DNA of 64,000 nucleotides from an uncultured Solibacteraceae bacterium (GCA_964471115.1 CAYYFE010000008.1:34597-98596), one strand, 5' to 3'; counted from the stretch's first letter, positions 730 to 18,274 are shown. Numbers and translations: made by a program. The notes: generated by a model not told the origin, from the letters alone.

Positions 730-904
730 CGTAAGGCCAGCGACAGAATCCGCGGCGGTGGAAGGGTGCGGATGTCGCGCCGAGTCGGCCCAAGGACATC
801 AGAAGGTCTCTGAAGCGGGACGGCACGAAGCTTGCTACTTAGGAGCGCGAATCACTTGATTCCGCGGCAAGCGCCGCGGAGAGCTGGGGAGCCTGGTGGT
901 TCAC

Positions 905-932
905 AAGGCCCGCGCAAGCGGGCCTTTTTTTT
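905..932 (+). terminator. Rho-independent terminator (7-bp GC stem, GCAA tetraloop, T8)
   Basis: aaGGCCCGC-GCAA-GCGGGCCtttttttt. Perfect stem followed by eight T, the only such T-run-plus-hairpin I found in this GC-rich window. It lies 47 nt upstream of the ATG at 979. Confidence 0.8.
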
Positions 933-978
933 CGTCCCAACCCGCAACATCCCAGGCGGTTCTTCCGTCGGACGGCTC

Positions 979-3321
979 ATGCCACATCTGCTGCGCGGGC
1001 TCCGTTCGGGCGTCGTCCTGTTTCGCACATCCCCGCTGGCCACTGCCGCGGCCGTCGTCGCCCTGGCGCTGGGCCTGGGCTTCAGCACCACGATCTACAG
1101 CATCGTGCACGGCGCGACACGAAGCCTGCCCGTTCACGAGCCTGAACAGGTCGTGGCGGTGCAGCTGCGGCCCACCGGATCACCGGCCGGCAATCCGGGT
1201 GCGCGCGGGCTGGAACTGGCGCAGTGGCGCGAGGCCGCCGGCGGCCGCGCGGCGCTCGAGGCTTTCGAGACTCTGTCGGTGAACGTGAGCGATGCGGGCG
1301 ACCACAGCCCCATCCCGGAGCGCGTGGCGGCGGCTCGGATCACGTGGTCGACGTTTGAAGTGCTCGGCGTGCCACCACAAGCAGGCCGAGGCTTCGCGGC
1401 CACGGACGGCGACCCGGGCGCGCCACGGGCTGTGGTCATCTCCTCCGCGCTCTGGGATCGCCGCTACGGGCGGGATGACGTCATCGGCAAAGTCATCAGG
1501 CTCGACGGTGTGCCCCACACGGTCGCCGGCATCATGCCGGAGCGCTTCGGCTTTCCAATTCGCACGGACGTCTGGGTGCCCATGGCCGAGCGCACCGCCA
1601 ATCCGGCGATCGTACAGGTGTGGGGCCGGTTGGACGCCGGCACGAGCCGCGAGGCGCTGGCGTCGCTGCTGCAGGGATCGACCGATCGGACTCTGGCAGT
1701 GGACGTGATCCCGTTCACCAACCTCGAGACCCCCCGAGAAGTCGTGGCGGCGCTGTACGTGCTGCTGCTGGCCGTCAGCGGCGTGTTGCTCATCGCGTGC
1801 GTCAACGTCGCCAATCTCTTTCTCGCCAGGGCAGCGGCCCGGGCGCGCGATACGGCCGTGCGCCTGGCACTTGGCGCCTCACGCCGTGTCCTGCTGCTCG
1901 AACAGACGGGCGAAGCGCTGCTCCTGACCCTGCTCGCCCTGGGCGCCGGGGTCTGGCTCGCCGTGGCGGGAACGCAGCTGTTTGCCGGCGGCACGTCGCA
2001 CATCATCGAAGCCTACTGGGTGGAGTTTCGCGTCGATGGGGTCGTGCTGGCCTGGGCGTCGGCGCTGGCGCTGCTGGCGGCGGTGCTGGCCGCCGTCTTG
2101 CCGGCGGTCAGGGCGGCGCGGACCGATGTCATTCACACCCTGCGCGACGGCGCGGGCGCGACGCGCCGATCGGCAGGCCGCACCAGCCGTGTGCTCATGT
2201 CCGCGCAGGTGGCCCTGGCGTGCGCGTTGCTGGCCCTGACGCTGCTGCTCGGCCGCACCGCGCTTGCGGTGCAGGACACGGCGTGGCCGTTTGACGCCGA
2301 CGCGGTCTGGTCCACCAACCTCTCGATTCCCCAGACCACGCTCGAGAACCCGGAGTCGCGCACACGGCTGCTGGATCGTCTGGACGATGAACTCCGATCG
2401 ATGCCGGGCGCCCGAGGGGCGCTGGCGTCCGCGCTGCCGGGGCGCGGTTCGGGCCAGTGGACCTTCGGGCTCGACACCCCGCCGGACAGCAAGGAAACGA
2501 CCGGCCTGACCTCACTCACGCTGGTGTCGCCCGACTACTTCGCCGTGTTGGGCGCCCGCGCCCTGCGCGGCCGGCTGCTGGACCACAGTGACCGCGCCGG
2601 CAGTCCGCTGGTGGTGGTCGTGAATGAGAGCTTCGTCCGCAGGCACTCGCCGAACCAGGACCCCATCGGCCGGCGCGTGGTGCTGGGTCAGCGCAGCCTC
2701 ACGATCGTGGGTGTCGTGCCCGACCTGGTGCCCAACGACCTGCAGGACCTTCATCAGGACGGCATCTACGGCGCCATCAGTCAGGGACGGCCGTTCGCGG
2801 TGCGAGTGGTGGCCGCGGGTGCGGTCTCTCCCCGTTCGCTGCAGGACCTGGTCACGCGCGTCGATCCCGACATTCCCCTGTACGAGACCTTCACGGTGCG
2901 CGAGGCGGCGCTGCGCGACAAGCAGATCCTGACGGTGTTGTCAGGTCTGTTCGCCCTGTTCGGCACCGGCGCCCTCACGATGACGGCCATTGGGCTGTAC
3001 AGCGTGATGACGCTGCTGGTGGCCTTGCGGCGCCGTGAGTTTGGTGTGCGGCTGGCGCTGGGCGCGACGCGGCGCGACCTGCTGCTGATGGTCGCCCGTC
3101 AGGGCGGGCGTCAGGTGGCTGCCGGCCTCACGCTCGGGGTGCTGCTCGGTCTGGGAATGGCTACGGTCTTCTCGAGCGTCGTCGAGGCGGTGGCGGTGGA
3201 CGCCACCGGGCTGGTCGCGGGCATCATCGCCGCGATGGCCATGACGTCAGCCATTGCGCTCGCGGTTCCCACCTGGACCGCCAGCCGGGTGGATCCAATC
3301 ACGGCGCTTCGCGCCGACTGA
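979..3321 (+). CDS. ADOP family duplicated permease (MacB/FtsX-like), no PadR partner
   Basis: In-frame ATG at 979 within ORF 832..3321. N-terminal TM segment (TSPLATAAAVVALALGLGFSTTIYSIVHG), two large periplasmic domains and two FtsX-type 3-TM bundles, ending DPITALRAD as in MacB/FtsX permeases. Confidence 0.85.
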   Translation: MPHLLRGLRSGVVLFRTSPLATAAAVVALALGLGFSTTIYSIVHGATRSLPVHEPEQVVAVQLRPTGSPAGNPGARGLELAQWREAAGGRAALEAFETLSVNVSDAGDHSPIPERVAAARITWSTFEVLGVPPQAGRGFAATDGDPGAPRAVVISSALWDRRYGRDDVIGKVIRLDGVPHTVAGIMPERFGFPIRTDVWVPMAERTANPAIVQVWGRLDAGTSREALASLLQGSTDRTLAVDVIPFTNLETPREVVAALYVLLLAVSGVLLIACVNVANLFLARAAARARDTAVRLALGASRRVLLLEQTGEALLLTLLALGAGVWLAVAGTQLFAGGTSHIIEAYWVEFRVDGVVLAWASALALLAAVLAAVLPAVRAARTDVIHTLRDGAGATRRSAGRTSRVLMSAQVALACALLALTLLLGRTALAVQDTAWPFDADAVWSTNLSIPQTTLENPESRTRLLDRLDDELRSMPGARGALASALPGRGSGQWTFGLDTPPDSKETTGLTSLTLVSPDYFAVLGARALRGRLLDHSDRAGSPLVVVVNESFVRRHSPNQDPIGRRVVLGQRSLTIVGVVPDLVPNDLQDLHQDGIYGAISQGRPFAVRVVAAGAVSPRSLQDLVTRVDPDIPLYETFTVREAALRDKQILTVLSGLFALFGTGALTMTAIGLYSVMTLLVALRRREFGVRLALGATRRDLLLMVARQGGRQVAAGLTLGVLLGLGMATVFSSVVEAVAVDATGLVAGIIAAMAMTSAIALAVPTWTASRVDPITALRAD

Positions 3322-8314: not shown

Positions 8315-8790
8315 TCAGCGCAGCGATACGCGGCCGGGCGCCTCGAGCCGAAGGACGCGCCCGTCGGCCAGGGTCAGCGGGTAGGCGCCCTGCGGGAGCA
8401 GCAGCGTGTGCTCGGTGGTCGCGCCGCGACGGGCCAGCGTGACCGGCAGATGTTCGTACGGCACGGCGCAGTCACTGCCGGGAACCCCTTCCAGCAGCGC
8501 ACCCGCCAGAAGGGGCGACGGCACGATCTGGCGCCGCTGCGGCAGACCCGTCGTCGGCACCGTCGGCGTGACAATGACCGACTCGTCGGTGGCGTCCGGC
8601 ACGACGACGGTCTGCGCCTCAGCGGGCGTGACGGTGCCGCGTCGGCGCCTACGCAACGACGGCCAATCGATACACACTGCGCGGTAGGTTGTTCACTTCA
8701 ACAGGAAGGGTGAAATCATGAACGGATTCTTCGCGAATGCCCCCGCGCACGTCGTAGTAGATCGTGCCCAGCACCGCCGACACGCTGGGG
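8315..8790 (-). pseudogene. decayed, 5'-truncated paralog of the secreted protein gene at 12989..13840
   Basis: 8333-8640 matches 13013-13320 with about a dozen mismatches. 8650-8775 matches 13590-13730, so about 270 nt are missing between the two blocks. In-frame TAG at 8649-8651 in the homologous frame (LGTIYYDVRGGIREESVHDF...LAVVA*). The signal-peptide end is absent. Confidence 0.65.
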
Positions 8791-8811
8791 CCTTGAGTAA
8801 CGCGTGGCGAC

Positions 8812-11800
8812 TCACACGGCTCGCACGTCCTTGACGAAAGTCATGATCGATACGGGGAAGCTGAAACCGATGTCCTTCCCGCCCAAGCGCTGTAACGCTG
8901 AATGAACTGAAGCGAGGTCGATTTCGTCTTCCTCCGCGCCCGCAAAGCGGCCGAAGGGTGTCGGCTGATTGCCGTTCCAGAGGTGGTATCTGGTGAAGTC
9001 TTCCAGGAGGCGCCACCGCTCATCAGGCGTCCACCGATCTTTCACAACGGCAGGGTCAGCCGGGAGCCCTGACTCAGCCTGGCCTTCCACGTACTCCAGT
9101 GCTCTCTTCAGGCCAAGCTCATTAAACAGCATCGGGAAGAGTCGGTAGGCATACTCTCGTCGGTCTCCTACCAGTCTCAGATTCGTTCCTTCATCATGGC
9201 AGAGCCAAGCCTCAAGTTCATGCGCACTTGAGAAGTACCTGTGCTCCAGTTCGTGGCGATTATCGTTGACCCAGTCCTTGAGCATCACCCACAGATTACA
9301 GAAGAATCCATGATCAGGCGCCTGAGCCTGGAAGCTCATGTCCTCAAGTAGTCGTCGGCGCAGGCCAGTCAGCACGGCCTCCCGTTCCTGGAGCGTTCCC
9401 CGGTCGAGTACGACACTGGCCTCGACCAATCGGCCACGGACCGCCTCCAGGCTCAGACGTTGCGCTTCCGTCATCTCCGGCGGCGCATCGGCATAGAGAA
9501 TGAACTGACCATTCTGCGGTAGTGTCAATCGGCATTGTTCCAAGAGCTGTCGTTGCTCGTTTCTGCTGAGTTCGTGCAGCGCCTTCTTGGCAACAATGAG
9601 ACGGACAGGAGCCGGTAAGGAGTCCGAGTAAACAGAGTTGAGTGCGCCAACCAGTTCGAAGTCACCGGTAACCTCTCGCTGGAGCGCCATAAAGCGGCGT
9701 CCCTCACCCAGTCGTTCAAAGTCCTGCTTCACGGTGAGCAGCTGCGACGTATTGCGATCGACGGCCAGGACATGAAGACCCGCAGGGCTATGCTTCATGA
9801 CTACTTCACGCGTCTCAGGATTGCCGCCACCTGCCATCAAATCCACAAGCGCCTGCGGACCGGGCTCCCGGGCACTCTCGTCTAGCGCCCGGGCGATCCT
9901 TGCGCAATAGTCCGTGACAGCTGCCGCAGCCCCTGGTCCAGTGAGTACCGCCTGCCGTTCGCTGAAGAGCGTGGCATACGCGCCACGATAGCGCGTTGTA
10001 TAACGAACGGCGCCGAGGCGCACGAGTTCGTCGACCGTCACATTGCCGCATTGTCGCAACTCGGTGCCTTCCAGCAGCAGATTCCTGAACCTCACACCGA
10101 CTTCAAGGCAGGCGTCGATTGAAAACTTGCAGCCACTGAAGTGCGCTCCAGTCGCGTCGGCCCCGGACAGTAGCGCGCCTGAGAGGTCGCACTGCTCCAA
10201 CCTCGCGTTTCTCAAGTTCGCTCTGACCAAATCGGCTCCGACGAGGCTGCACCCCCGAATTGTCACTCCAGCGAGATCGGCACCCGACAGCTTCAACCCA
10301 TCAAGTTGACTCCACCCTTGGTTCCCATCAATCAGGAGGGGCAGCCCGCGAGCACGCATTGATAAGACTGCCAACTGAAGAAGGTTGGTGCCATGAAAGA
10401 CCTCCGGGTTGTCCAGGAACATCAGCCCATCTGAAGGACTTCCCATACGCCTACAGCTGGACAACCTGGTCGCGATCTCGCCAATCGACAGCCCCTCAAG
10501 CAATACCGAGACGTGCTGTACCAAGTTCCAGCTCCACTTGAACGCAAGGCTCTCAGGCAGCCGACCGCCTGCCTGAACCGCGTCTGCGATCGGCTGAGCC
10601 AGAAAGAAGTCAAGCATGTGTGCAGACCCAATCGATCCGGCATTGCCGCCCCGGTCGACGACGAGCTCGTCCGCGAGTCGAACGGCCGACCACACTGGCT
10701 GATCGGCAACCGGGACGTGGAACACGCCGCACCTGGCGGACTGTACCGCCATGCGTTCCAAGAACTTACGTACTGCGGCCGGCGCCACCTTTTCACGGTC
10801 AAGGGCCCGGCTGAGACGGCCCACTGCCAGGTTCGCAAGATGCTCGAGGAGTTGGAGTTCGCCGAGGCCCGGAGTCTCCAGAATCTTTGCAATCTCCTCC
10901 GGTTCAGTCACAGCCAGAACTGCGACTTTTCCCAGGCAGCGAGGGCTTCTCAACCAGGACTCATTGCGATGCTCGTGCAGAAATCGCTCGAACGCTTCTC
11001 GACCAGCTCCGCCATCGGGTACCCGGTCGCGAACATATCGAACAGCCTCGGCCGTCGTCCAGAACGGCGGGAGGCGCACGGCCGACCAGCGAGCGAAGTG
11101 TGCGTCTTCCGCGACCTCCGGCCTTGATGCAATGATCCCGCGGACAGGATAGTCTGCGGCTAACCGCTCCAGCTCCACAGCCAACCGCACCGTGGTGCGA
11201 AGACGCTCGAGCTCGTCATAAGCGTCAACCAGCAGGACCACACCACCTGATCGAAATAGCGCCAGCAACTTCTCGACCGCGCGTTCGCCGCCACCGAGCC
11301 CACGATTGTTCAGCCATATTGCCAGCAAGGTCTCAAGCAGCTCCGCTCCGCTGGCCGCCCGCCGGATTGACGCCGAATCGCGTACGCTCTCAAGGTGTCG
11401 AGGCTCGAGCAAGAGAGGGATCGGCCTATTCGGATCAGCTCGACGGGCTTCTATCAGCTGGAAGTAGAGCCGATGCATCAGGGTCGTCTTCCCCGCCCCA
11501 GCTGGACCGACGATCCATTGCATCACACCGGCCGTCCCCTCTTGACTGATTCTCTGCTCCACAGCGACCCTGGCGGATTGGGCGTCTCCATCTACGTGGA
11601 TATCAACGAATGAACCGAGGGCCTCCCAGTGGGCCTTCGAGAACCCTCCGCCAACTTCGTCAGCAGAGTGAATCTCTGAATCAGCAATGAACTCGAATCG
11701 CCGAACCAGGGGATCTCGCCTGAGCGGTCCGACATTGGCGGCGTACTCACGAGCGCGAGTGAGGTTGTATCGATCGATCCGAATCACAAGGTCGGGCTCT

Positions 11801-12051
11801 GTTCTCGGAGTCCTCCTTCGATCGCGATGGAGAAAGAACACCGCACCACAGGTCAGGACCACGAGCGTCAATGACACTCCAAGCCAGGTGGTCACACTTT
11901 CGTAGAGGCCTCCCAGCAGTGCCCAGCCTGAACCGGTCAGAATCGCGAATGAGGCCGTGCTCGGGTAGCGCTGCCGGAGAGTTCGCAGCCAGCCATCGAG
12001 CGTGGGACCGGACTCCTCATCCGTCTGGCGCTTCTCTTTGTGGGGTTGCAA
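8812..12051 (-). CDS. membrane-anchored NACHT/STAND-like P-loop NTPase with pentapeptide repeats and a class I methyltransferase-like domain (1079 aa)
   Basis: Two N-terminal TM helices (aa 33-50, 56-74). Walker A GPAGAGKT (aa 182-189, nt 11485-11508) and Walker B VVLLVDAYDE (aa 271-280). Pentapeptide repeats LSGAD LAGVT IRGCS LVGAD LVRAN LRNAR LEQCD LSGAL LSGAD (aa 586-645). MTase-like motifs LVDLMAGGG, VLAVDRN, LIVAKKALHEL, NGQFILYAD (aa 735-855). Sample 60-mers are clearly lower in GC than the flanks. Confidence 0.8.
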   Translation of the reverse strand: MQPHKEKRQTDEESGPTLDGWLRTLRQRYPSTASFAILTGSGWALLGGLYESVTTWLGVSLTLVVLTCGAVFFLHRDRRRTPRTEPDLVIRIDRYNLTRAREYAANVGPLRRDPLVRRFEFIADSEIHSADEVGGGFSKAHWEALGSFVDIHVDGDAQSARVAVEQRISQEGTAGVMQWIVGPAGAGKTTLMHRLYFQLIEARRADPNRPIPLLLEPRHLESVRDSASIRRAASGAELLETLLAIWLNNRGLGGGERAVEKLLALFRSGGVVLLVDAYDELERLRTTVRLAVELERLAADYPVRGIIASRPEVAEDAHFARWSAVRLPPFWTTAEAVRYVRDRVPDGGAGREAFERFLHEHRNESWLRSPRCLGKVAVLAVTEPEEIAKILETPGLGELQLLEHLANLAVGRLSRALDREKVAPAAVRKFLERMAVQSARCGVFHVPVADQPVWSAVRLADELVVDRGGNAGSIGSAHMLDFFLAQPIADAVQAGGRLPESLAFKWSWNLVQHVSVLLEGLSIGEIATRLSSCRRMGSPSDGLMFLDNPEVFHGTNLLQLAVLSMRARGLPLLIDGNQGWSQLDGLKLSGADLAGVTIRGCSLVGADLVRANLRNARLEQCDLSGALLSGADATGAHFSGCKFSIDACLEVGVRFRNLLLEGTELRQCGNVTVDELVRLGAVRYTTRYRGAYATLFSERQAVLTGPGAAAAVTDYCARIARALDESAREPGPQALVDLMAGGGNPETREVVMKHSPAGLHVLAVDRNTSQLLTVKQDFERLGEGRRFMALQREVTGDFELVGALNSVYSDSLPAPVRLIVAKKALHELSRNEQRQLLEQCRLTLPQNGQFILYADAPPEMTEAQRLSLEAVRGRLVEASVVLDRGTLQEREAVLTGLRRRLLEDMSFQAQAPDHGFFCNLWVMLKDWVNDNRHELEHRYFSSAHELEAWLCHDEGTNLRLVGDRREYAYRLFPMLFNELGLKRALEYVEGQAESGLPADPAVVKDRWTPDERWRLLEDFTRYHLWNGNQPTPFGRFAGAEEDEIDLASVHSALQRLGGKDIGFSFPVSIMTFVKDVRAV

Positions 12052-12139
12052 CGCGGCGTCTCCTTTCCGACATCTACCTTACCGCCTGCCCCACACTCCG
12101 TCTTCCCGACGAGTGGACGGCTTGCTTGCTGACTCTTGG

Positions 12140-12937
12140 TCACCGTTCCTTGGGGTGGACCATCAGAGTCATATCTTCATCAAACCCCGTTGCCTCCTGC
12201 CCAGAATACCCGCGCTGATTGCAGAGGACGAGGGTTTCACCCAGTGTATAGCGGCAGTTCCAATGTGTATGGCCATGAATCCAGTAGGGGGACCCAGACC
12301 CCGCAACCAGGGCGTCCAGGTGGGAGGCGTACGCCGCTGAAAGTGGATCGGACACGAGAGTGGGCTCCAGAGACCGGTCGCTCGGTGCATGATGAGTAAC
12401 GATCACCGTCGGCAGCGGTGAAGGCTCTGCCAGCGCTGTTTGAAGCCAGCGCACCGCCTCACGGTGCCATGTCATCACTTGCGTCGGTACCAACTTCCTG
12501 TAGGTGGGCCGCACACGAATCTTTCGGAAGTCCGTCATGCCTTCATGGACGGCCGCGATCGCTTCTGGATCGCCGCCGTGCAATTGCAGATCTGACCACA
12601 GCGTCGCTCCAAGGAATCGTACGCCGCACACCGTCCGCGCCTCGTTGTGCAGCACGTGCACTCCCAATGCCGCCCCCCGTTCACGGGCCACCTGAATGAA
12701 GTCTGGCATCACTCGCCCGTAACACTCGTGGTTGCCAAGAACGTACACGACCGGAACGTCAGGAAACGTCCGCGCGGCCCATTCGATCCCTCGTGTCCCC
12801 AAGTGGATGTCACCGGCCAGCACAACACAGTCCGCCCCACCTCCGTGCAACGTGACGTCTCCGAATTCCAGGTGGAGATCACTGAGTACGCGGACCCGAA
12901 CGGGTGCCGAACCGCGTTCGTCGAGATCCTGACCCAT
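12140..12937 (-). CDS. calcineurin-like metallophosphoesterase
   Basis: Complete motif series VLSDLHLE (DxH), LAGDIHLG (GD), VLGNHECY (GNHE), VTHHAP and IHGHTH. Located 88 nt upstream of and co-directional with the NTPase gene. Confidence 0.8.
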   Translation of the reverse strand: MGQDLDERGSAPVRVRVLSDLHLEFGDVTLHGGGADCVVLAGDIHLGTRGIEWAARTFPDVPVVYVLGNHECYGRVMPDFIQVARERGAALGVHVLHNEARTVCGVRFLGATLWSDLQLHGGDPEAIAAVHEGMTDFRKIRVRPTYRKLVPTQVMTWHREAVRWLQTALAEPSPLPTVIVTHHAPSDRSLEPTLVSDPLSAAYASHLDALVAGSGSPYWIHGHTHWNCRYTLGETLVLCNQRGYSGQEATGFDEDMTLMVHPKER

Positions 12938-12988: not shown

Positions 12989-13840
12989 TTAAGGATCCGG
13001 AAGCACAATCTGGCCGGGCGCCTCGAGCCGAAGGACGCGCCCGTCGGCCAGGGTCAGCGTGTAGGCGCCCTGCGGGAGCAGCAGCGTGTGCTCGGTGGTC
13101 GCGCCGCGACGGGCCAGCGTGACCGGCAGATGTTCGTACGGCACGGCGCAGTCACTGCCGGGAATCCCCTCCAGCAGCGCGCCCGCCAGAAGGGGCGACG
13201 GCACGATCTGGCGTCGCTGCGGCAAACCCGCCGTCGGCACCGTCGGCGTGACAATGACCGATTCGTCGGTGGCGTCCGGCACGACGACGGTCTGGGCGTC
13301 GGCTGGCGTGACGGTGTGACAGGTCACGCCCCAGTGCAGCGTGCGCACGGTGAGCCAGGTGCCCGCGGCGATGGTCGCCAGACTGATGCGCCCCTGCTCG
13401 TCGGTGGCGCTGTTGACGGCCGCGGGCCGCGTGTAGAACTGCGCGCCGGCCGCCGCGTGGCCTGCGGCGTCCACCACTCTGACAAACCCGCGCCGCTCGA
13501 CGAGATTCGCACGGAGCGATGTCGTCTCGCCGGCCGTCACGCGCGCATCGAGCACCCGTTCGGCCACCAGCGCCCGGGTCGGTGCCTGCGCGACGACGGC
13601 AAATCGATACACGCCGGGCGGCAGGCTGGTCACTTCAACAGGCCGGCTGAAATCGTGGACGGACTGTTCGCGAATGCCGCCGCGTACGTCGTAGTAGATC
13701 GTGCCCAGCACCGCCGTCGTGCCGAGGCGGCCGTCCTCCGAAAACGCGATCGCGACCGTGCCCGTGGCGGTCTGCGCCTTCGGACTACCCCAGACGCAGG
13801 CGAGGGCCAGCGCGAGCACGGTGGCGACGCGGCCCGTCAC
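12989..13840 (-). CDS. secreted repetitive beta-sandwich protein (carboxypeptidase-regulatory-like fold suspected), paralog family member
   Basis: GTG start at 13840 overlaps the upstream stop. Signal peptide MTGRVATVLALALACVWGSPKAQT. Shares the WG(V/I)TCH motif and the C-terminal LxDGRVLxxxxPG motif with the upstream paralog. Confidence 0.6.
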   Translation of the reverse strand: MTGRVATVLALALACVWGSPKAQTATGTVAIAFSEDGRLGTTAVLGTIYYDVRGGIREQSVHDFSRPVEVTSLPPGVYRFAVVAQAPTRALVAERVLDARVTAGETTSLRANLVERRGFVRVVDAAGHAAAGAQFYTRPAAVNSATDEQGRISLATIAAGTWLTVRTLHWGVTCHTVTPADAQTVVVPDATDESVIVTPTVPTAGLPQRRQIVPSPLLAGALLEGIPGSDCAVPYEHLPVTLARRGATTEHTLLLPQGAYTLTLADGRVLRLEAPGQIVLPDP

Positions 13841-15492
13841 CGAATCTCCAGCCGGCCCGGCGACGTCACCGCCAGCACCCGCCCATCGCGGAGCACAAGC
13901 TGATACTGCCCCGGCGGCAGGTCGATCGACAACTCGAGCCCTTTGGGCAAGCGCGTCTCGGCGACCGAGAAACCCTCAAACGGCACGTCGCAGGTCGCGG
14001 TGCTCACGCCACGCACGACCGCGCCGCCCAGGATTCGCTTGAGATCCGCCGCCGCGAGGGTGCCGAGATTTGGTTTGTCGCCATCATGCGGGTACAAGAT
14101 CGACACCCGCGCGGTGTGATTCACCACCGTGGCCACCTGTATCGCGTCGGTGGTCACGACATGACAGGTGATGCCCCAGTTCCTGGTGCGCACGACCACG
14201 CGACTGCCCGGCGCGATTGTTGAGAGCGAGACCTCGCCGCGATCATCGGTCGACAGACGCGACCCCAGCGGCTGTCCGTAGACACTCGCACCCTCGATGG
14301 GTTGCCCGATGTGATCGACCACGCGCAGCATCGCTGACGTTGGCACCAGATCGATGAGCACGTCGGTGGCCGCGTCCGGGCGCACGGCGACATCCTGCAT
14401 GCGCGACGCCACGAGCGCCAGCGGCGGCCCATCGTCACGTGGCAGCGTCGCGGATGCGGTGACCGTGTACGTGCCAGGCGAGAACACGCGCTGTTCGTAA
14501 CCCGCGACAGGATCAGTCAGGCGCTGAACCGTCGGTGGGTGAGGCAGCAGCTGCGTGGTGACATTGACCAGCATGATGTCGGGTACGATGCCACCTCGGT
14601 ACGACACGAGTACGCGAATCCTCGCGTCGGCCAGCTGCACATCGTGACGGTTGCTGCCCGGTTGAATCACCACGTCTGCGGAGGCCGGAGGCAGGCTGTG
14701 GACGCCCGTGGCGGTGTACTCCGGCACGTACGTGCCTGGCGCCGGCAGCACGGTGACATAGGCCCCGTCACGGCCGGAAGGCACGTTCGAGAACACGATT
14801 GGCGACTCCGGAGTCAGAGCCAGCCCCGGCGTGGACGCCACCGACAAGCCGGTCATCCTCGATCGGAACGATACGCGAACACCGGAGACCGGCTCCCCAC
14901 CCGCCGTGACCTGTCCGCGCACGACGACGGGCGGGTGCGGCAGGCGAACGGACGTCCATTCACCGGCGCGCACCTGGAACTGCAGCATGTACGGCGGAAG
15001 GACCGACGACGGCGGCGTGACCTGGAGTTGGTACCGCCCCGCCTGCAGGCCGCCGACCTCGCGCACGCAGGTCCCAATCGATGGCATCGTCCAGCCGGCA
15101 GGTTCTTTGTCGGTGCCATGCTGCGCAATGACAAGTACGGTGCTGCGAAACGTCCATTGATCGCCTGGCTCACACATGCCCGGATCGGCGTTGAACCGCA
15201 CGCCGCCACGTCGCGACGTGCCCAGCACCACTTCCGCCACACCCGCACGCGTGATCGTGATGTTCTGCGAGAAGTCAGCGACTGAGCCTGCAAACACGGA
15301 CCGGACGCGGTACCCGCCCGGTGTCAACTGCGTCAGCGCCATCCGGAGCGATTCGCCCAGCGGCCACTCTCCGCTGGTCGGACCTTCCAGCCGCACGGCC
15401 ACCGGCCGCACCGCGCTGTCTTCGATGTGGACCACGAGCGAGCCCGTGGACAACCAGCCGGCGGCAATCAGCGTGAAGATGGCCGTGCTCAT
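13837..15492 (-). CDS. secreted repetitive beta-sandwich protein, paralog family member
   Basis: ATG at 15492 (MSTAIFTLIAAGWLSTGSLV) shares one nt with the upstream TGA. C-terminus is LVLRDGRVLAVTSPGRLEIR. The upstream part of track ORF 13837..15639 overlaps the preceding gene and is not counted. Confidence 0.6.
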   Translation of the reverse strand: MSTAIFTLIAAGWLSTGSLVVHIEDSAVRPVAVRLEGPTSGEWPLGESLRMALTQLTPGGYRVRSVFAGSVADFSQNITITRAGVAEVVLGTSRRGGVRFNADPGMCEPGDQWTFRSTVLVIAQHGTDKEPAGWTMPSIGTCVREVGGLQAGRYQLQVTPPSSVLPPYMLQFQVRAGEWTSVRLPHPPVVVRGQVTAGGEPVSGVRVSFRSRMTGLSVASTPGLALTPESPIVFSNVPSGRDGAYVTVLPAPGTYVPEYTATGVHSLPPASADVVIQPGSNRHDVQLADARIRVLVSYRGGIVPDIMLVNVTTQLLPHPPTVQRLTDPVAGYEQRVFSPGTYTVTASATLPRDDGPPLALVASRMQDVAVRPDAATDVLIDLVPTSAMLRVVDHIGQPIEGASVYGQPLGSRLSTDDRGEVSLSTIAPGSRVVVRTRNWGITCHVVTTDAIQVATVVNHTARVSILYPHDGDKPNLGTLAAADLKRILGGAVVRGVSTATCDVPFEGFSVAETRLPKGLELSIDLPPGQYQLVLRDGRVLAVTSPGRLEIR

Positions 15493-17219
15493 CACCGGAT
15501 CTCGAGCGTGCCCGGCGCGGTGGCGCGGTACGTCTGCGACCCGTACTCGTACGTCACGGACACGCCCAGCGGCAGATTGGCGATCGCGAATCCGCCGTCG
15601 ACCCGACGCCAGTCGAATTCCTCGAGGGGCACTGTGCACCGATCGACGTCAGCGAGCCGGATCCGGCCGGGGGGCACACGCAGCCCGGCCGCGCCCGGCA
15701 GAAAGACGGTCAGCGGCGCGAGTGACGATGACAGCGTCACCGTGTTGGGGGCATCGGCCGCAAGCACGACGCAGGCCGGCACGCGGCCGGGCGCGCGAAC
15801 GATGACCTCGGCGCCTGGCGCGAGCCGCCTGACATCAAAGGCGCCATCGGCCAACGCGCGCAGAATGGTGCCGCCCGAGCGCGCCCGCGCACCGGGCGCG
15901 TCCACCACCGCCAGCGTGGCCCGCTGCGGGCGCAGGTTCAGCGTGACCGCGCGAACGCCCGGATTGGCGTCGATCTGGACGGTGGCCGCCGAGGAGACCA
16001 GGTCCGGGTCGGCATGGCCGTACACGACGTACGTGCCGAGCGGCAGCGCCCGCAGCACGATCGGCCGCAGCGGATCGTCGACGATCCCGGAGTAACGAAC
16101 GGGGCCGTCGATCTCGAACCGCACCGGATCCTCGGGCAACGCGCCTTCGACCAGGAACGACAACCGCACATCGGCGCCCGCCAAGTCGAGGTCGATGATC
16201 GTCTCGCCGACGTCGACGGGACGATCGACTTCGGCGACCCCCAGGTCGTCGCCGGTGGCCAGCCGCACCACATACACGTCCGGCGCGGGCACGGTGAGGC
16301 TGTAGCGGCCGCGATCGTCGGTCGTCACCGTCCACACGCGGTCGGTGCGCGTGGCCAGCACCTCCAGCGGTTCACGCGTCATCGGCTCGCCGTTAAGCGT
16401 CACGAGGCCGCTGATGCGGAGCTCTCCGGCCTCCACGGGCAGGCGCGGGGAAAACTCCGTGGTGGCCTCGTGCACCACACTCACCGGGATCGGGCGGCCG
16501 ATGGGCGTATCGGGCGGTCCGAACCGCAGTTCGTAGTCGCCGGCCGGCAAACCCGGCACGGACACGAACGCGGCGCCGTTGATGCCGACGATCCGTTCCT
16601 GCGGGCCGCGCAGCGTGAGCACTGCCTCAGCGCGTTCAGCCGGCCCGAACGCCAGCAGCAGCTCGCCGCCCGGCAGCGCAGGGGGCACGCGCATGGTCAG
16701 GTCCTGGGCCGATTCTGGCGTCACGGCCGGCACGATCAAGGTGACCGGAGACGCCCCGGCGCGATGGACGCGCATCAGGCGCGCCCCGGCGGCGAGCGGC
16801 CACGGGTCCAGCATCGCGGCAGTGACCGTGCGAGCGGCCAGCACGTGCGACACCGAGTCGCCCCACGCACGCCACTCCACGGTGGCGGGCGTGCGCAGCG
16901 TCCAGGTCGGCACGAGGAACCGCACGGCCGGCTGCATCGCGGCTGACGCGCCACGGCACGCCGACGCGATGTCGATGTCGAGCGGCTCGGCGCCGGGAAC
17001 CGAACACTGCACGATCCCGGTTGAGACACACAGCGCCTCGGCAAACGCAGCACCGCCGCTCCCCGGACGCAGCAACGCCGCGCCGGTCGGGGTACGGCAC
17101 GCGTCGAACGCCGAGACGCCGGCGCCCGGCAACATTTCGACCTGGACCGGCCGCCAGCCCCCTTGCGTCGTGACGACGGCCGTGGCCATCAACACGCCGA
17201 GCATCCCCCGCATGGTCAT
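15492..17219 (-). CDS. secreted repetitive beta-sandwich protein, paralog family member
   Basis: ATG at 17219 (MTMRGMLGVLMATAVVTTQG) overlaps the stop of the DUF1624 gene (ATGA). C-terminus ends APGTLEIR like its paralog. The 908-aa track ORF extends upstream in a frame that overlaps the DUF1624 gene, so that part is rejected. Confidence 0.6.
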   Translation of the reverse strand: MTMRGMLGVLMATAVVTTQGGWRPVQVEMLPGAGVSAFDACRTPTGAALLRPGSGGAAFAEALCVSTGIVQCSVPGAEPLDIDIASACRGASAAMQPAVRFLVPTWTLRTPATVEWRAWGDSVSHVLAARTVTAAMLDPWPLAAGARLMRVHRAGASPVTLIVPAVTPESAQDLTMRVPPALPGGELLLAFGPAERAEAVLTLRGPQERIVGINGAAFVSVPGLPAGDYELRFGPPDTPIGRPIPVSVVHEATTEFSPRLPVEAGELRISGLVTLNGEPMTREPLEVLATRTDRVWTVTTDDRGRYSLTVPAPDVYVVRLATGDDLGVAEVDRPVDVGETIIDLDLAGADVRLSFLVEGALPEDPVRFEIDGPVRYSGIVDDPLRPIVLRALPLGTYVVYGHADPDLVSSAATVQIDANPGVRAVTLNLRPQRATLAVVDAPGARARSGGTILRALADGAFDVRRLAPGAEVIVRAPGRVPACVVLAADAPNTVTLSSSLAPLTVFLPGAAGLRVPPGRIRLADVDRCTVPLEEFDWRRVDGGFAIANLPLGVSVTYEYGSQTYRATAPGTLEIR

Positions 17220-18274
17220 GACGATGTGCGCTGGGCGATGAGGTGATCGGGAATCCACGGCGTCACCGTGCGCCGTTTCCACCAAGCGGCGAGCCACAAC
17301 ATGAACAGCGTGAACAGGGCGTAGGCGATCAGGGACTCGGGAATCGTCAGTGATCGTTTGAGGAACGCGCTCAGCAGTCCGTAGGCCAGTTCCACGTGCA
17401 CCCAGTAGACGAAGAGCGAGGTCTGGCCGAAGAGCACCAGCGGGCTCCAGCGGGACGCGGTGGATCGCTGGTACCAAAGCCACGCTCCGGCCACCATCAG
17501 GATCATCCAGCCGGTGCGCGCGGACAGAAACGACCAGGCCGTCACGCCGGCGGTGGGCAGCGCCGCGGGCAGCAGGGCGCCGATCCAACCGGCGGCGACG
17601 GCGGCCGCGCCCACAGCCGCCAGACGCAAGTGGAACGCGCGTTCCTGTTCGGCGGCACGCCCGCGCGCGATCCACAGTCCCACCAGCGCACCGGCCACCA
17701 TGAACACGAGCCAGGGGAACAACGGGAACTGCCCGAAGCCGCCGTTGGGCCGGATGTAGGCCTCGAGCCTGGGATGCAACTGCGTCGGCCACTCCCACAG
17801 CCGCGAGTACGGCGTCACGACGAGAACGACCAGCAGCGCGGCGGAGAGGACACCCACACGGGCGCGCAGGTCGCGACCGCGTCCCCAGAGCCACGCCACC
17901 AGCACCATGCCCAGCCCGAGGATGTTGAGGATGTCGGGTTTGAAGATCGAGTGCCAGACGCCGTACGGATTGAGCAGGTACGACTGCACCCGGAAGACGT
18001 GCGCGAAGAAGAAGATCTGCCAGCCGCGGCGCTGCAGCGCGCGCGACGCGTCCGCGTCGCTGCGGCCCTTGCGCACCTGCGCGTCGGCGGCCATCGGGAT
18101 GGCAAGCCCGGCCAGGAACAGGAAGAGCGGCGCGGCCCACCCGCCCAGAATGGCCAACCACAGAAACTCGCGGCTGCCGCGTTCGGTGTCGGCCGTCCAG
18201 GCATCCACCGCGTGCCACTCGATCATGATGAGCACGGCCACGCCGCGCAGCCAGTCGATGTACGTGCGGCGCAC
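17216..18274 (-). CDS. DUF1624 / heparan-alpha-glucosaminide N-acetyltransferase-like membrane acyltransferase
   Basis: Polytopic membrane protein starting MRRTYIDWLRGVAVLIMIEWHAVDAW, the family N-terminal signature (DxxRG...M...H). About 9-10 hydrophobic segments. Confidence 0.6.
   Translation of the reverse strand: MRRTYIDWLRGVAVLIMIEWHAVDAWTADTERGSREFLWLAILGGWAAPLFLFLAGLAIPMAADAQVRKGRSDADASRALQRRGWQIFFFAHVFRVQSYLLNPYGVWHSIFKPDILNILGLGMVLVAWLWGRGRDLRARVGVLSAALLVVLVVTPYSRLWEWPTQLHPRLEAYIRPNGGFGQFPLFPWLVFMVAGALVGLWIARGRAAEQERAFHLRLAAVGAAAVAAGWIGALLPAALPTAGVTAWSFLSARTGWMILMVAGAWLWYQRSTASRWSPLVLFGQTSLFVYWVHVELAYGLLSAFLKRSLTIPESLIAYALFTLFMLWLAAWWKRRTVTPWIPDHLIAQRTSS

What the first reader, a model, noticed from the sequence alone, without database searches (positions are those of the whole stretch)
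8812..12051. Unusual domain combination in one 1079-aa protein: 2 TM helices, NACHT-like P-loop, pentapeptide repeats and a SAM-methyltransferase-like fold
Seen in sequence: there are hydrophobic helices at aa 33-50 and 56-74, Walker A GPAGAGKT (182-189) and Walker B VVLLVDAYDE (271-280) followed by a helical region. About 12 pentapeptide units A(D/N)LXX span aa 586-645. Downstream there is a motif series fitting class I methyltransferases: hhDhxxGxG as LVDLMAGGG (735-743), an acidic beta-2 end VLAVDRN (761-767), LIVAKKALHEL (818-828) and LPQNGQFILYAD (844-855). An uncharacterised region of about 220 aa follows at the C-terminus. Established knowledge: pentapeptide-repeat proteins form DNA-mimicking right-handed beta-helices (Qnr, MfpA), and STAND proteins usually carry a C-terminal sensor made of repeats. 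Inference: the pentapeptide helix and the MTase-like module could be the sensor or bait (a DNA mimic engaging phage DNA-binding proteins) or a second enzymatic output. Membrane anchoring of a NACHT protein is also uncommon.
Basis: partly seen in the sequence, partly recalled or inferred. Interest (0 to 1): 0.7.

Follow-up and report, generated by a model that had tools for sequence, protein, structure and literature searches.

The report
Membrane NLR-like ATPase with methyltransferase-type sensor
This gene encodes a membrane-anchored relative of animal NOD-like immune receptors whose usual repeat sensor is replaced by a short pentapeptide helix plus a highly conserved methyltransferase-type domain, a rare combination that I found described in none of the papers I read.

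Summary
The ORF lies on the minus strand (8812-12051, 1079 aa, TTG start behind an AGGAG).

Domain evidence:
- N-terminus: a hydrophobic hairpin.
- NACHT-type NTPase: Walker A and B are invariant in 42 homologues, and the top Foldseek hits are NOD2, NLRP and NLRC4.
- Pentapeptide helix: about 13 units, Pfam E = 8e-15.
- C-terminal 400 aa: one class I SAM-methyltransferase-fold domain (AlphaFold pLDDT 93; all top 50 PDB hits are methyltransferases).

An exhaustive search of 1.84 billion representative proteins found only 95 relatives. Nearly all long ones carry the domain at the C-terminus of 900-1400-aa STAND proteins. The genomic loci are mostly Gemmatimonadota MAGs.

The N-termini vary: membrane helices, TIR, alpha/beta-hydrolase, caspase, EAD11. 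The methyltransferase module is the best-conserved part, including its cofactor-pocket motifs.

This is the layout of a single-gene NLR-like conflict system with swappable effectors and a constant sensor. That reading is inferred from architecture only: there is no defence-island context and no PADLOC hit.

Here the gene and a phosphoesterase gene form a low-GC cassette bracketed by long direct repeats.

I rate it a new variant of a known kind, interest about 0.6.

The parts
8812..12051 (-). Whole ORF, 1079 aa plus stop (P0001): an NLR-like STAND protein.
   Evidence: ORF list and translation. The identical protein is in the public collection. Full-length AlphaFold model has pLDDT 85.2 and pTM 0.84.
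12060..12064 (-). Shine-Dalgarno-like AGGAG, 8 nt upstream of the TTG start.
   Evidence: Read directly from the sequence.
11824..11955 (-). N-terminal hydrophobic hairpin (aa 33-76), flanked by Arg-rich stretches. Predicted membrane anchor and effector.
   Evidence: Kyte-Doolittle scan: aa 53-76 peaks at 2.2, aa 33-50 is borderline. Nearest homologues have 2-3 hydrophobic segments. AlphaFold gives helices 42-56 and 62-75 at low confidence.
11062..11541 (-). NACHT-type nucleotide-binding domain (aa 171-330): Walker A 182-189, Walker B 271-280, Arg310.
   Evidence: Pfam NACHT 23.3 bits, below the 26.7 cut-off. G187, K188 and D276 are invariant and R310 is 95% conserved in 42 homologues. Foldseek: NOD2 5irn at E = 8e-9.
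10342..11061 (-). Helical and winged-helix part of the NOD module (aa 331-570).
   Evidence: AlphaFold secondary structure. Foldseek alignments to NLRs span about 840-970 columns. W331 is invariant.
10015..10341 (-). Pentapeptide-repeat beta-helix (aa 571-679): about 13 A(D/N)LXX units at aa 581-645 plus a partial coil.
   Evidence: Pfam PF00805, 54.5 bits, E = 8e-15. Short strands recur every 20 residues in the model. Pentapeptide is hit in 31 of 42 homologues.
9472..10014 (-). Methyltransferase-fold core (aa 680-860): N-terminal helices with R687/Y688/Y715, motif I D737-L-M-A-G-G, D765 at the end of strand 2, K823-A-x-H826-E827 after strand 4, and G848...D855-x-P857.
   Evidence: AlphaFold pLDDT 93.2. 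Top 50 Foldseek PDB hits are all class I SAM methyltransferases. Residues are invariant across 42-61 sequences. HMM alignment to CysG-type methyltransferases.
9187..9471 (-). Helical 'lid' insertion (aa 861-955) carrying the family signature N919-x-W-x-x-x-K925-D-W-x-N-x-N-x-x-E934-x-x-x-R938-Y-F.
   Evidence: Helices 862-952 lie between strands 5 and 6. Mean pairwise identity is 35% and the residues are invariant. The signature is shared with the stand-alone methyltransferase P0088.
8815..9186 (-). C-terminal part of the same domain (aa 956-1079): the last strands of the sheet plus helices.
   Evidence: The model is a single domain with pTM 0.92. hhalign against the 330-aa stand-alone homologue covers this region (98.9% probability).
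12140..12937 (-). Upstream calcineurin-like phosphoesterase gene (265 aa). It was co-acquired with the target. A functional link is uncertain because other family loci lack it.
   Evidence: Pfam Metallophos E = 6.7e-9. Same GC3 (0.66) as the target against 0.85-0.89 in the flanks. Same strand, 88-bp gap. Found together with the target on a 4.3-kb contig elsewhere. Weak PADLOC PDC-S10 hit, E = 1.2e-4.
8332..8791 (.). Left copy of the long direct repeat bracketing the cassette. It is a 5'-truncated copy of ORF X carrying a 257-nt deletion.
   Evidence: 8332-8631 matches 13012-13311 at 96% identity, and 8637-8791 matches 13574-13728 at 84%.
13012..13728 (.). Right copy of the direct repeat, inside ORF X (12989-13840, minus strand, 283 aa, no Pfam hit).

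Best explanation
The gene encodes a single-polypeptide, NLR-like (NACHT-clade STAND) switch protein. It belongs to a rare family that I did not find described.

Shown:
- An N-terminal hydrophobic hairpin.
- A NOD module with intact Walker A and B motifs.
- A short pentapeptide beta-helix.
- A 400-aa class I methyltransferase-fold domain with a large helical lid.
- Across the family, the pentapeptide + methyltransferase module is constant and is the best-conserved part. The cofactor-pocket motifs and a polar lid signature are invariant.
- The N-terminus is exchanged between membrane helices, TIR, alpha/beta-hydrolase, caspase and EAD11 domains.

Inferred mechanism, by analogy with Avs and bNACHT proteins:
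1. In the resting state the C-terminal module holds the NOD closed.
2. A constant ligand or target is recognised at the methyltransferase-type pocket and lid. The pentapeptide helix acts as a rigid spacer or second contact surface.
3. Recognition releases the NOD.
4. ATP-dependent oligomerisation brings the N-terminal domains together.
5. In this member the clustered membrane hairpins would damage the inner membrane, giving an abortive-infection-type outcome.

The gene reached this genome by horizontal transfer, as part of a 4.2-kb two-gene cassette.
For: Architecture:
- Pfam Pentapeptide E = 8e-15.
- Walker A/B residues invariant in 42 homologues.
- Full-length model pTM 0.84, with NOD2, NLRP7, NLRC4 and NLRP3 as best PDB matches.
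- C-terminal model pLDDT 93.2, with only class I methyltransferases in the top 50 PDB and BFVD hits.
- hhalign to a stand-alone Pfam-positive methyltransferase: 98.9% probability, E = 3.8e-17 over core, lid and C-end.

Family:
- 95 representatives at E <= 1e-3 among 1.84 billion. Nearly all long hits carry the domain at the extreme C-terminus of 900-1420-aa proteins.
- N-terminal TIR_2 at E = 5.7e-15 in P0022, Abhydrolase_1/6 in P0011, P0012 and P0023, plus caspase and EAD11 in one member each. Hydrophobic segments are present in many members.

Constant sensor:
- Mean pairwise identity is 37% (core) and 35% (lid), against 25% (NTPase domain), 19% (helical part), 24% (pentapeptide) and 17-18% (N-terminus).
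- In a syntenic pair of genomes the N-terminal/NOD half is 32-58% identical while the methyltransferase module is 82-94% identical.

Single-gene system: no neighbour is shared between distant loci.

Mobility:
- GC3 is 0.66 against 0.85-0.89 in the flanks.
- 300-nt (96%) and 155-nt (84%) direct repeats flank the cassette.
- In one synteny block the family gene is the most diverged of nine shared genes: 68.5% against 80-94%.
Against: - There is no experimental or contextual evidence of defence. PADLOC has no significant hit. Neighbours in eight loci are housekeeping or regulatory genes, not defence islands.
- The sensor is more conserved than the NTPase. That is atypical for receptors that bind phage proteins. 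Together with the invariant catalytic-looking residues (K823, H826, E827) it fits an active enzyme equally well.
- Motif I has an invariant Met where the first glycine normally sits, so SAM binding itself is unproven.
- The TM prediction rests on hydropathy only, and the first helix is borderline.
- The N-terminal 84 residues are modelled at low confidence.
Confidence: 0.6

Rival explanations
1. A STAND-regulated methyltransferase. The C-terminal domain is an active enzyme and is the real output, methylating DNA, RNA, protein or a small molecule. The NOD gates its activity or assembly. The N-terminal domains serve localisation or act as additional outputs.
For: - The methyltransferase module is the most conserved part of the protein.
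- Conserved residues include the motif I Asp, the strand-2 Asp, and a K-A-x-H-E motif after strand 4.
- H826 aligns with the histidines of the 'IHHL' motif in CysG-type methyltransferases. H121A mutant structures of that enzyme are deposited in the PDB.
- Stand-alone homologues with canonical Pfam methyltransferase hits exist.
Against: - TIR, caspase and alpha/beta-hydrolase domains at the N-terminus are typical death or immune effectors, not localisation modules.
- In NLR-type STANDs the C-terminal region is the regulatory or sensor part.
- No partner restriction or reader gene is conserved next to the gene.
- The first glycine of motif I is replaced by an invariant Met.
Confidence: 0.2
2. 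A non-immune, membrane-associated signalling ATPase of Gemmatimonadota, for example envelope or metabolic regulation. It uses a SAM-binding domain to read metabolic state.
For: - Neighbouring genes are housekeeping or regulatory: peptidases, FtsH-like protease, histidine kinases, GGDEF/EAL, amidohydrolase.
- There is no PADLOC match.
- Many STAND clades are non-defence (Lee et al. 2026).
Against: - The distribution is extremely patchy: 7 loci in a scan of 185,579 species genomes, although that scan is pattern-limited.
- There are clear horizontal-transfer signatures here.
- Divergence is faster than in flanking genes.
- N-termini are swapped for TIR, caspase and hydrolase domains.
Confidence: 0.15
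3. An artefactual fusion, a mis-assembly, or a decaying pseudogene that joins unrelated domains.
For: - The gene lies in a cassette bounded by repeats.
- Metagenome assemblers broke contigs at those repeats.
Against: - The same full-length architecture occurs in more than 40 proteins that are only 17-36% identical, drawn from independent samples, and the reading frames are intact.
- The identical 1079-aa protein was assembled in two other runs.
- The model has a high-confidence inter-domain arrangement, pTM 0.84.
Confidence: 0.02

Closest known systems
Bacterial NACHT proteins (bNACHT; Kibby et al., bioRxiv 10.1101/2022.07.19.500537) and animal NLRs (NOD2, NLRP3, NLRC4)
   Same: - A central NACHT-type NOD with Walker A and the D-x-x-D-E Walker B.
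- N-terminal effector, C-terminal sensor logic.
- Pentapeptide repeats and TM segments are both listed among bNACHT accessory domains.
- The best structural matches of the full-length model are NOD2, NLRP and NLRC4.
   Different: - No methyltransferase domain appears in the bNACHT domain catalogue text I could read.
- Here the sensor is a compact enzyme-fold domain with an invariant pocket rather than LRR, TPR, HEAT or FGS repeats.
- No PADLOC bNACHT model matches.
- Pfam NACHT is below its cut-off for this protein.
Avs antiviral STAND families (Gao et al. 2022, from my own knowledge; Lee et al. 2026, PMC13581612)
   Same: - A single-gene STAND.
- The sensor is conserved within the family while N-terminal effectors are swapped.
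- Activation by oligomerisation.
   Different: - Avs sensors are mostly large TPR-like alpha-solenoids that bind phage structural or replication proteins.
- This sensor is a pentapeptide helix plus a Rossmann methyltransferase fold.
- The main text of Lee et al. mentions neither pentapeptide nor methyltransferase.
Small-molecule class I SAM methyltransferases (YcgJ 1xxl, 4VPMT2 8zsa, cyclopropane/mycolic-acid synthases, phosphoethanolamine MTs, CysG 9fcs)
   Same: - Seven-stranded Rossmann fold.
- Motif I Asp, acidic residue at the end of strand 2, His after strand 4, and the 'LxPGG' strand-5 motif.
- Target-normalised TM-score up to 0.63.
   Different: - Only 9-16% identity.
- The first glycine of motif I is an invariant Met.
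- There is a roughly 95-aa helical lid with its own invariant polar signature (NxWxxxKDWxNxNxxExxxRYF) that no Pfam model covers.
- The domain is fused to the C-terminus of a STAND protein.
- Substrate and activity are unknown.
Pentapeptide-repeat proteins Qnr/MfpA (DNA mimics)
   Same: The A(D/N)LXX repeat and a predicted right-handed quadrilateral beta-helix. There are weak NCBIfam hits to MfpA, Qnr and HetL models, far below their cut-offs.
   Different: There are only about 13 units (4-5 coils), embedded between two domains. The known DNA mimics are free-standing dimers of roughly twice that length (my own knowledge). DNA mimicry was not tested here.

Membership tests
NACHT-clade STAND NTPase (NLR-like) | Walker A GxxxxGK[ST] | tested here: met
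   GPAGAGKT at aa 182-189. G187 and K188 are invariant in 42 of 42 homologues.
NACHT-clade STAND NTPase (NLR-like) | Walker B hhhhD[GAS]xDE, followed by a conserved Arg (sensor-1-like) | tested here: met
   VVLLVDAYDE at aa 271-280. D276 is invariant and R310 is 95% conserved.
NACHT-clade STAND NTPase (NLR-like) | Pfam NACHT (PF05729) at or above its gathering score | tested here: not met
   23.3 bits against a cut-off of 26.7 for this protein. Fifteen of 42 homologues hit NACHT (best E = 1.9e-11) and 15 hit nSTAND_NTPase5. The clade assignment within STAND is therefore not settled.
NACHT-clade STAND NTPase (NLR-like) | NOD fold (nucleotide-binding domain plus helical and winged-helix domains) resembling solved NLRs | tested here: met
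   Foldseek on the full-length model: NOD2 5irn at E = 8e-9, plus NLRP7, NAIP/NLRC4 and NLRP3, all at probability 1.00.
NACHT-clade STAND NTPase (NLR-like) | Nucleotide-dependent oligomerisation | not testable with these tools
   Needs biochemistry.
Pentapeptide repeat family (PF00805) | Tandem A(D/N)LXX units above the Pfam cut-off that form a quadrilateral beta-helix | tested here: met
   54.5 bits against a cut-off of 20.2. Strand periodicity is 20 residues in the AlphaFold model.
Qnr/MfpA-type DNA mimics | NCBIfam equivalog score; a free-standing dimeric helix that mimics B-DNA | tested here: not met
   MfpA 23 bits against a cut-off of 360. Qnr 17 bits against 240. Mimicry itself was not tested.
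Class I SAM-dependent methyltransferase | Rossmann-like seven-stranded fold | tested here: met
   Model pLDDT 93.2. The top 50 PDB hits are all class I methyltransferases, 226 at E <= 1e-3, with TM-score up to 0.63. The BFVD hits agree.
Class I SAM-dependent methyltransferase | Motif I (D/E)xGxGxG | tested here: inconclusive
   D737-L-M-A-G-G-G aligns to D-L-G-A-G-T-G of CysG. The Asp and the later glycines are kept, but the first Gly is an invariant Met.
Class I SAM-dependent methyltransferase | Acidic residue at the end of strand 2 (ribose contact) | tested here: met
   D765 is invariant in 61 sequences and aligns to the Asp of 'L(V/Q)DRS' in CysG.
Class I SAM-dependent methyltransferase | Pfam methyltransferase model at or above its gathering score | tested here: not met
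   For this protein, only Methyltransf_2 at 14.5 bits against a cut-off of 22.3. The cut-off is met in homologue P0028 (Methyltransf_11, 24.2 against 21.2). The stand-alone relatives P0085 and P0088 carry precomputed Pfam methyltransferase hits at E <= 1e-5.
Class I SAM-dependent methyltransferase | SAM binding and methyl transfer | not testable with these tools
   Needs ITC or a thermal-shift assay plus an activity assay.
Known anti-phage STAND systems (Avs, bNACHT as catalogued in PADLOC) | Match to a catalogued defence model | tested here: not met
   The best PADLOC hits are P-loop-only matches at E = 0.009-0.05.
Known anti-phage STAND systems (Avs, bNACHT as catalogued in PADLOC) | Location in defence islands | tested here: not met
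   Neighbours in the window and in L001, L003-L007 and L012 are housekeeping or regulatory genes. The sample is small: eight loci.
Known anti-phage STAND systems (Avs, bNACHT as catalogued in PADLOC) | Swappable N-terminal effector domains on a constant NOD + sensor | tested here: met
   TIR_2, Abhydrolase_1/6, Peptidase_C14, EAD11 and TM helices.
Known anti-phage STAND systems (Avs, bNACHT as catalogued in PADLOC) | Protection against phage | not testable with these tools
   Needs plaque assays.

The most novel reading that the evidence does not exclude
The methyltransferase-derived domain is a metabolite sensor rather than a protein-pattern receptor. It reads SAM, SAH or a SAM-derived molecule in its invariant pocket. 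The NLR-like switch then fires when a phage perturbs that pool, for example through a SAM lyase or hydrolase used against restriction and BREX, or when a phage-made SAM-related compound appears.

This would be a cofactor-guarding bacterial NLR, a sensing principle not described for STAND immunity.

It would explain two observations: the 'sensor' is the most conserved part of the protein, and the effector and NOD half turns over instead.
Probability: 0.15. Interest if true: 0.85.

Novelty: new variant of a known kind. Interest (0 to 1): 0.6.

Why it matters
Known bacterial NLR-like receptors (Avs, bNACHT) mostly sense infection with repeat solenoids that bind phage proteins. This is a family whose sensor position is occupied by an enzyme-fold domain with an invariant cofactor pocket.

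If it is an immune receptor, NLR-type switches can be wired to small-molecule or enzymatic recognition. That would open a testable route to metabolite-guard sensing in bacteria.

The family is small and clearly delimited, and its residues give obvious mutational targets: K188, D737, D765, H826 and the lid signature. The window member is a compact one-gene unit suited to heterologous tests.

It also supplies a new Pfam-less domain signature, the lid motif NxWxxxKDWxNxNxxExxxRYF, for annotating Gemmatimonadota and metagenomic proteins that are currently 'hypothetical'.

Tried and rejected
Searching with the C-terminal domain alone added two fragments. The family appeared only with the exhaustive HMMER search.
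- A two-sequence profile of the C-terminus against PDB sequences gave nothing significant. The 13-sequence profile reached only E = 0.0018. Sequence-only evidence for the methyltransferase is therefore weak, and the case rests on structure and hhalign.
- The NACHT profile against PDB sequences gave only P-loop matches.
- I looked for a conserved partner gene. L001 has a divergent 294-aa gene plus a TraG/VirD4-like ATPase, and the window has a phosphoesterase. None is shared, so I rejected a multi-gene system.
- There is no tRNA in the window and no integrase in the cassette. No sigma-70 promoter was detected and no convincing terminator.
- I searched four key STAND and conflict-system papers for a pentapeptide + methyltransferase sensor and found none. 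No supplementary tables of Lee et al. 2026 are held, so I cannot exclude that the family sits unnamed among their 684 sensor clusters.
- A search for relatives of the stand-alone homologue P0088 returned only itself.
I therefore could not inspect pocket geometry or the interface between the methyltransferase domain and the NOD.

Full report
**1. What is there**

The finding's coordinates hold one long ORF on the minus strand (12051 down to 8812; 1079 aa). It starts at a TTG that follows an AGGAG by 8 nt. The identical protein is present in the public protein collection (P0001).

- Walker A GPAGAGKT, 182-189
- Walker B VVLLVDAYDE, 271-280
- about 13 A(D/N)LXX units, 581-645
- LVDLMAGGG, 735-743
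- VLAVDRN, 761-767
- LIVAKKALHEL, 818-828
- LPQNGQFILYAD, 844-855

**2. Are the domain calls real?**

*Pentapeptide.* Yes by Pfam alone: PF00805 scores 54.5 bits against a cut-off of 20.2, E = 8e-15.

*NACHT.* It is sub-threshold for this sequence (23.3 against 26.7 bits), and PDB sequence searches see only the P-loop. Other evidence supports it:
- In an alignment of 42 full-length homologues, G187, K188, D276 and W331 are invariant and R310 is 95% conserved.
- Fifteen members hit NACHT (best E = 1.9e-11) and 15 hit nSTAND_NTPase5.
- The full-length AlphaFold model (pLDDT 85.2, pTM 0.84) has rabbit NOD2 as its best PDB match (5irn, E = 8e-9). NLRP7, oocyte cytoplasmic-lattice and SCMC entries, NAIP/NLRC4 and NLRP3 follow.

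*Methyltransferase.* Pfam gives only Methyltransf_2 at E = 0.023, and NCBIfam gives CpaM at 6e-4. Structure and profile comparison make the case:
- AlphaFold of aa 680-1079 with a 61-sequence alignment gives pLDDT 93.2 and pTM 0.92. The model has five alternating strands and helices, a long helical insertion, and then the closing strands.
- Foldseek returns only class I SAM-dependent methyltransferases among the top 50 PDB hits, with 226 hits at E <= 1e-3. Examples are 4VPMT2, YcgJ, cyclopropane and mycolic-acid synthases, TleD and phosphoethanolamine methyltransferases. The viral library gives the same answer.
- A 13-sequence HMM aligns D737-L-M-A-G-G to D-L-G-A-G-T-G, D765 to the strand-2 Asp, and H826 to the His of 'IHHL' in CysG-type enzymes.
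- Nine of 42 homologues hit Methyltransf_12, and P0028 passes the Methyltransf_11 cut-off.
- Two stand-alone proteins (P0085, 365 aa; P0088, 330 aa) are confident Pfam methyltransferases and match the family profile. hhalign of the family against P0088 gives 98.9% probability and E = 3.8e-17 over 303 columns, including the lid and the C-terminal end.

*Membrane helices.* Hydropathy gives one strong segment (aa 53-76) and one borderline, Gly-rich segment (33-50). Both are flanked by Arg-rich stretches (and direct reading). The closest homologues have two or three clear segments. I could not run a dedicated TM predictor.

**3. The family**

Word-indexed searches found one full-length relative at 34% identity (P0002) and two fragments.

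An exhaustive HMMER search with the C-terminal profile against 1.84 billion representative proteins found 95 proteins at E <= 1e-3, 69 of them at E <= 1e-30. Apart from fragments, nearly all long hits are 900-1420 aa with the domain at the extreme C-terminus. The D-x-M-A-G-G motif is present in every long member.

A pattern-limited scan of one genome per species found seven loci: six in Gemmatimonadota MAGs and one in a Bacteroidota MAG.

Where sources give names, they are 'hypothetical protein' or a composite COG-style label.

**4. Comparative anatomy**

The N-terminus is the variable part:
- TM segments in many members
- TIR_2 in P0022, E = 5.7e-15
- alpha/beta-hydrolase in P0011, P0012 and P0023
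- caspase (Peptidase_C14) in one member and EAD11 in one member

In P0011 and P0012 a TM helix follows the hydrolase domain. P0029 has the same N-terminal layout by eye, but I did not scan it against Pfam.

The C-terminal module is the constant part and the best conserved:

| Region | Mean pairwise identity |
|---|---|
| Methyltransferase core | 37% |
| Lid | 35% |
| NTPase domain | 25% |
| Pentapeptide helix | 24% |
| Helical part of the NOD | 19% |
| N-terminus | 17-18% |

Forty-six of the 58 positions that are at least 85% conserved lie in the last 400 residues.

Two related Gemmatimonadaceae MAGs (L004, L006) carry the gene at the same site. There it is the most diverged of nine shared genes: 68.5% identity against 80-94% for the others. 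The divergence sits in the N-terminal and NOD half (32-58%), whereas the methyltransferase module is 82-94% identical.

No neighbouring gene is shared between distant loci, and the neighbours are housekeeping or regulatory genes.

**5. Local context in the window**

The target and the upstream phosphoesterase gene (12140-12937, same strand, 88-bp gap) share a GC3 of 0.66, against 0.85-0.89 for flanking genes.

Long direct repeats bracket the pair:
- 8332-8631 matches 13012-13311 at 96% identity.
- 8637-8791 matches 13574-13728 at 84% identity.
- The left copy lacks 257 nt.

The right copy lies inside a 283-aa ORF ('X'). The left copy is a 5'-truncated duplicate of X that keeps X's native 3' end. 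This pattern is what a recombinational (Campbell-type) insertion of a 4.2-kb cassette would leave. That reading is my inference, and there is no integrase inside the cassette.

Other metagenome assemblies contain the identical protein on 3.5-kb and 4.3-kb contigs. The 4.3-kb contig, which carries exactly the two cassette genes, has the size expected if assembly broke at the flanking repeats.

The phosphoesterase has a weak PADLOC hit to candidate PDC-S10 (E = 1.2e-4). It is absent from the other family loci, so I treat it as co-transferred and not as an established partner.

**6. Mechanism**

Shown: the domain order, intact NTPase motifs, a constant C-terminal module with an invariant pocket, and swappable N-terminal domains of the kinds used as effectors in conflict systems.

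Inferred, from the established behaviour of Avs, bNACHT and animal NLRs (otherwise my own knowledge):
1. The C-terminal module keeps the NOD closed.
2. Recognition at the methyltransferase-type pocket and lid releases it. The pentapeptide helix serves as a rigid connector or second surface.
3. ATP-driven oligomerisation clusters the N-terminal domains.
4. In this member the clustered membrane hairpins would compromise the inner membrane.

I put this at about 0.6.

The main rival (0.2) is that the methyltransferase is an active, NOD-gated output. The invariant K823/H826/E827 and the lid signature fit catalysis as well as ligand sensing.

A non-immune signalling role (0.15) is kept alive by the lack of defence-island context and of any PADLOC match.

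An assembly or fusion artefact is excluded.

**7. Comparison with what is known, and novelty**

NACHT proteins with pentapeptide sensors and with TM segments are catalogued (Kibby et al.). Membrane anchoring is therefore not unusual in itself.

I found no mention of a methyltransferase-fold sensor in the following:
- Kibby et al.
- the two Kaur et al. eLife papers
- the main text of the 2026 STAND survey
- a full-text search combining NACHT, methyltransferase domain and phage defence

The supplementary tables of the survey were not available. The family could be an unnamed cluster there.

I classify it as a new variant of a known kind: an NLR-like STAND with a new, enzyme-derived sensor module.

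The most novel reading not excluded is a SAM-pool or SAM-derivative sensor, a metabolite guard. I give it about 0.15.

Noticed in passing
window 8332-8791 and 13012-13728: Long direct repeats (300 nt at 96% identity and 155 nt at 84%; the left copy lacks 257 nt) bracket the low-GC two-gene cassette. The right copy lies in a complete 283-aa ORF X. The left copy is a 5'-truncated duplicate that keeps X's native 3' end. This looks like a recombinational insertion scar, and there is no integrase inside.
   Followed up: partly
window 12140-12937 (minus strand): A calcineurin-like phosphoesterase gene has the same atypical GC3 (0.66) as the target and a weak hit to PADLOC candidate PDC-S10 (E = 1.2e-4). 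It is co-assembled with the target on a 4.3-kb contig in another sample, but it is absent from the other family loci.
   Followed up: partly
L004 7880-11197 vs L006 7916-11191 (and L008): In syntenic Gemmatimonadaceae loci next to an FtsH-like AAA+/M41 protease gene, the family gene is the most diverged of nine shared genes (68.5% against 80-94%). The divergence is confined to the N-terminal and NOD half. In L008 the gene fragment at the same site is only about 31% identical, although the flanking gene is 69% identical.
   Followed up: partly
P0011, P0012, P0029 (family members, not in the window): These members begin with a signal-peptide-like or lipoprotein-like segment. In P0011 and P0012 an alpha/beta-hydrolase domain and then a TM helix precede the NACHT module, so the hydrolase 'effector' would lie outside the cytoplasm. 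P0029 looks the same by eye but was not scanned.
   Followed up: no
L013 710-1807 (P0085) and L014 99-1091 (P0088): Rare stand-alone 330-365-aa methyltransferases share the family's lid signature and have a more canonical motif I. They are likely relatives of the ancestor of the fused domain. Both are singletons on very short contigs, so their context is unknown.
   Followed up: partly
L001 7576-9929: In the closest homologue's locus, a 294-aa protein of unknown function and a TraG/VirD4-like coupling ATPase are transcribed divergently from the family gene. The ATPase has a weak PADLOC mad8 hit at E = 2.8e-7. This may be the remnant of a conjugative element.
   Followed up: no
window 832-3321, 18795-21422, 22533-25175; 13837-15639, 15492-18218: The window holds several large paralogous proteins of 829-880 aa that are similar to a protein in a Gemmatimonadaceae MAG, plus two proteins with CarboxypepD_reg domains. 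This fits a Gemmatimonadota-like, high-GC (68-70%) genome, but the organism was not identified.
   Followed up: no
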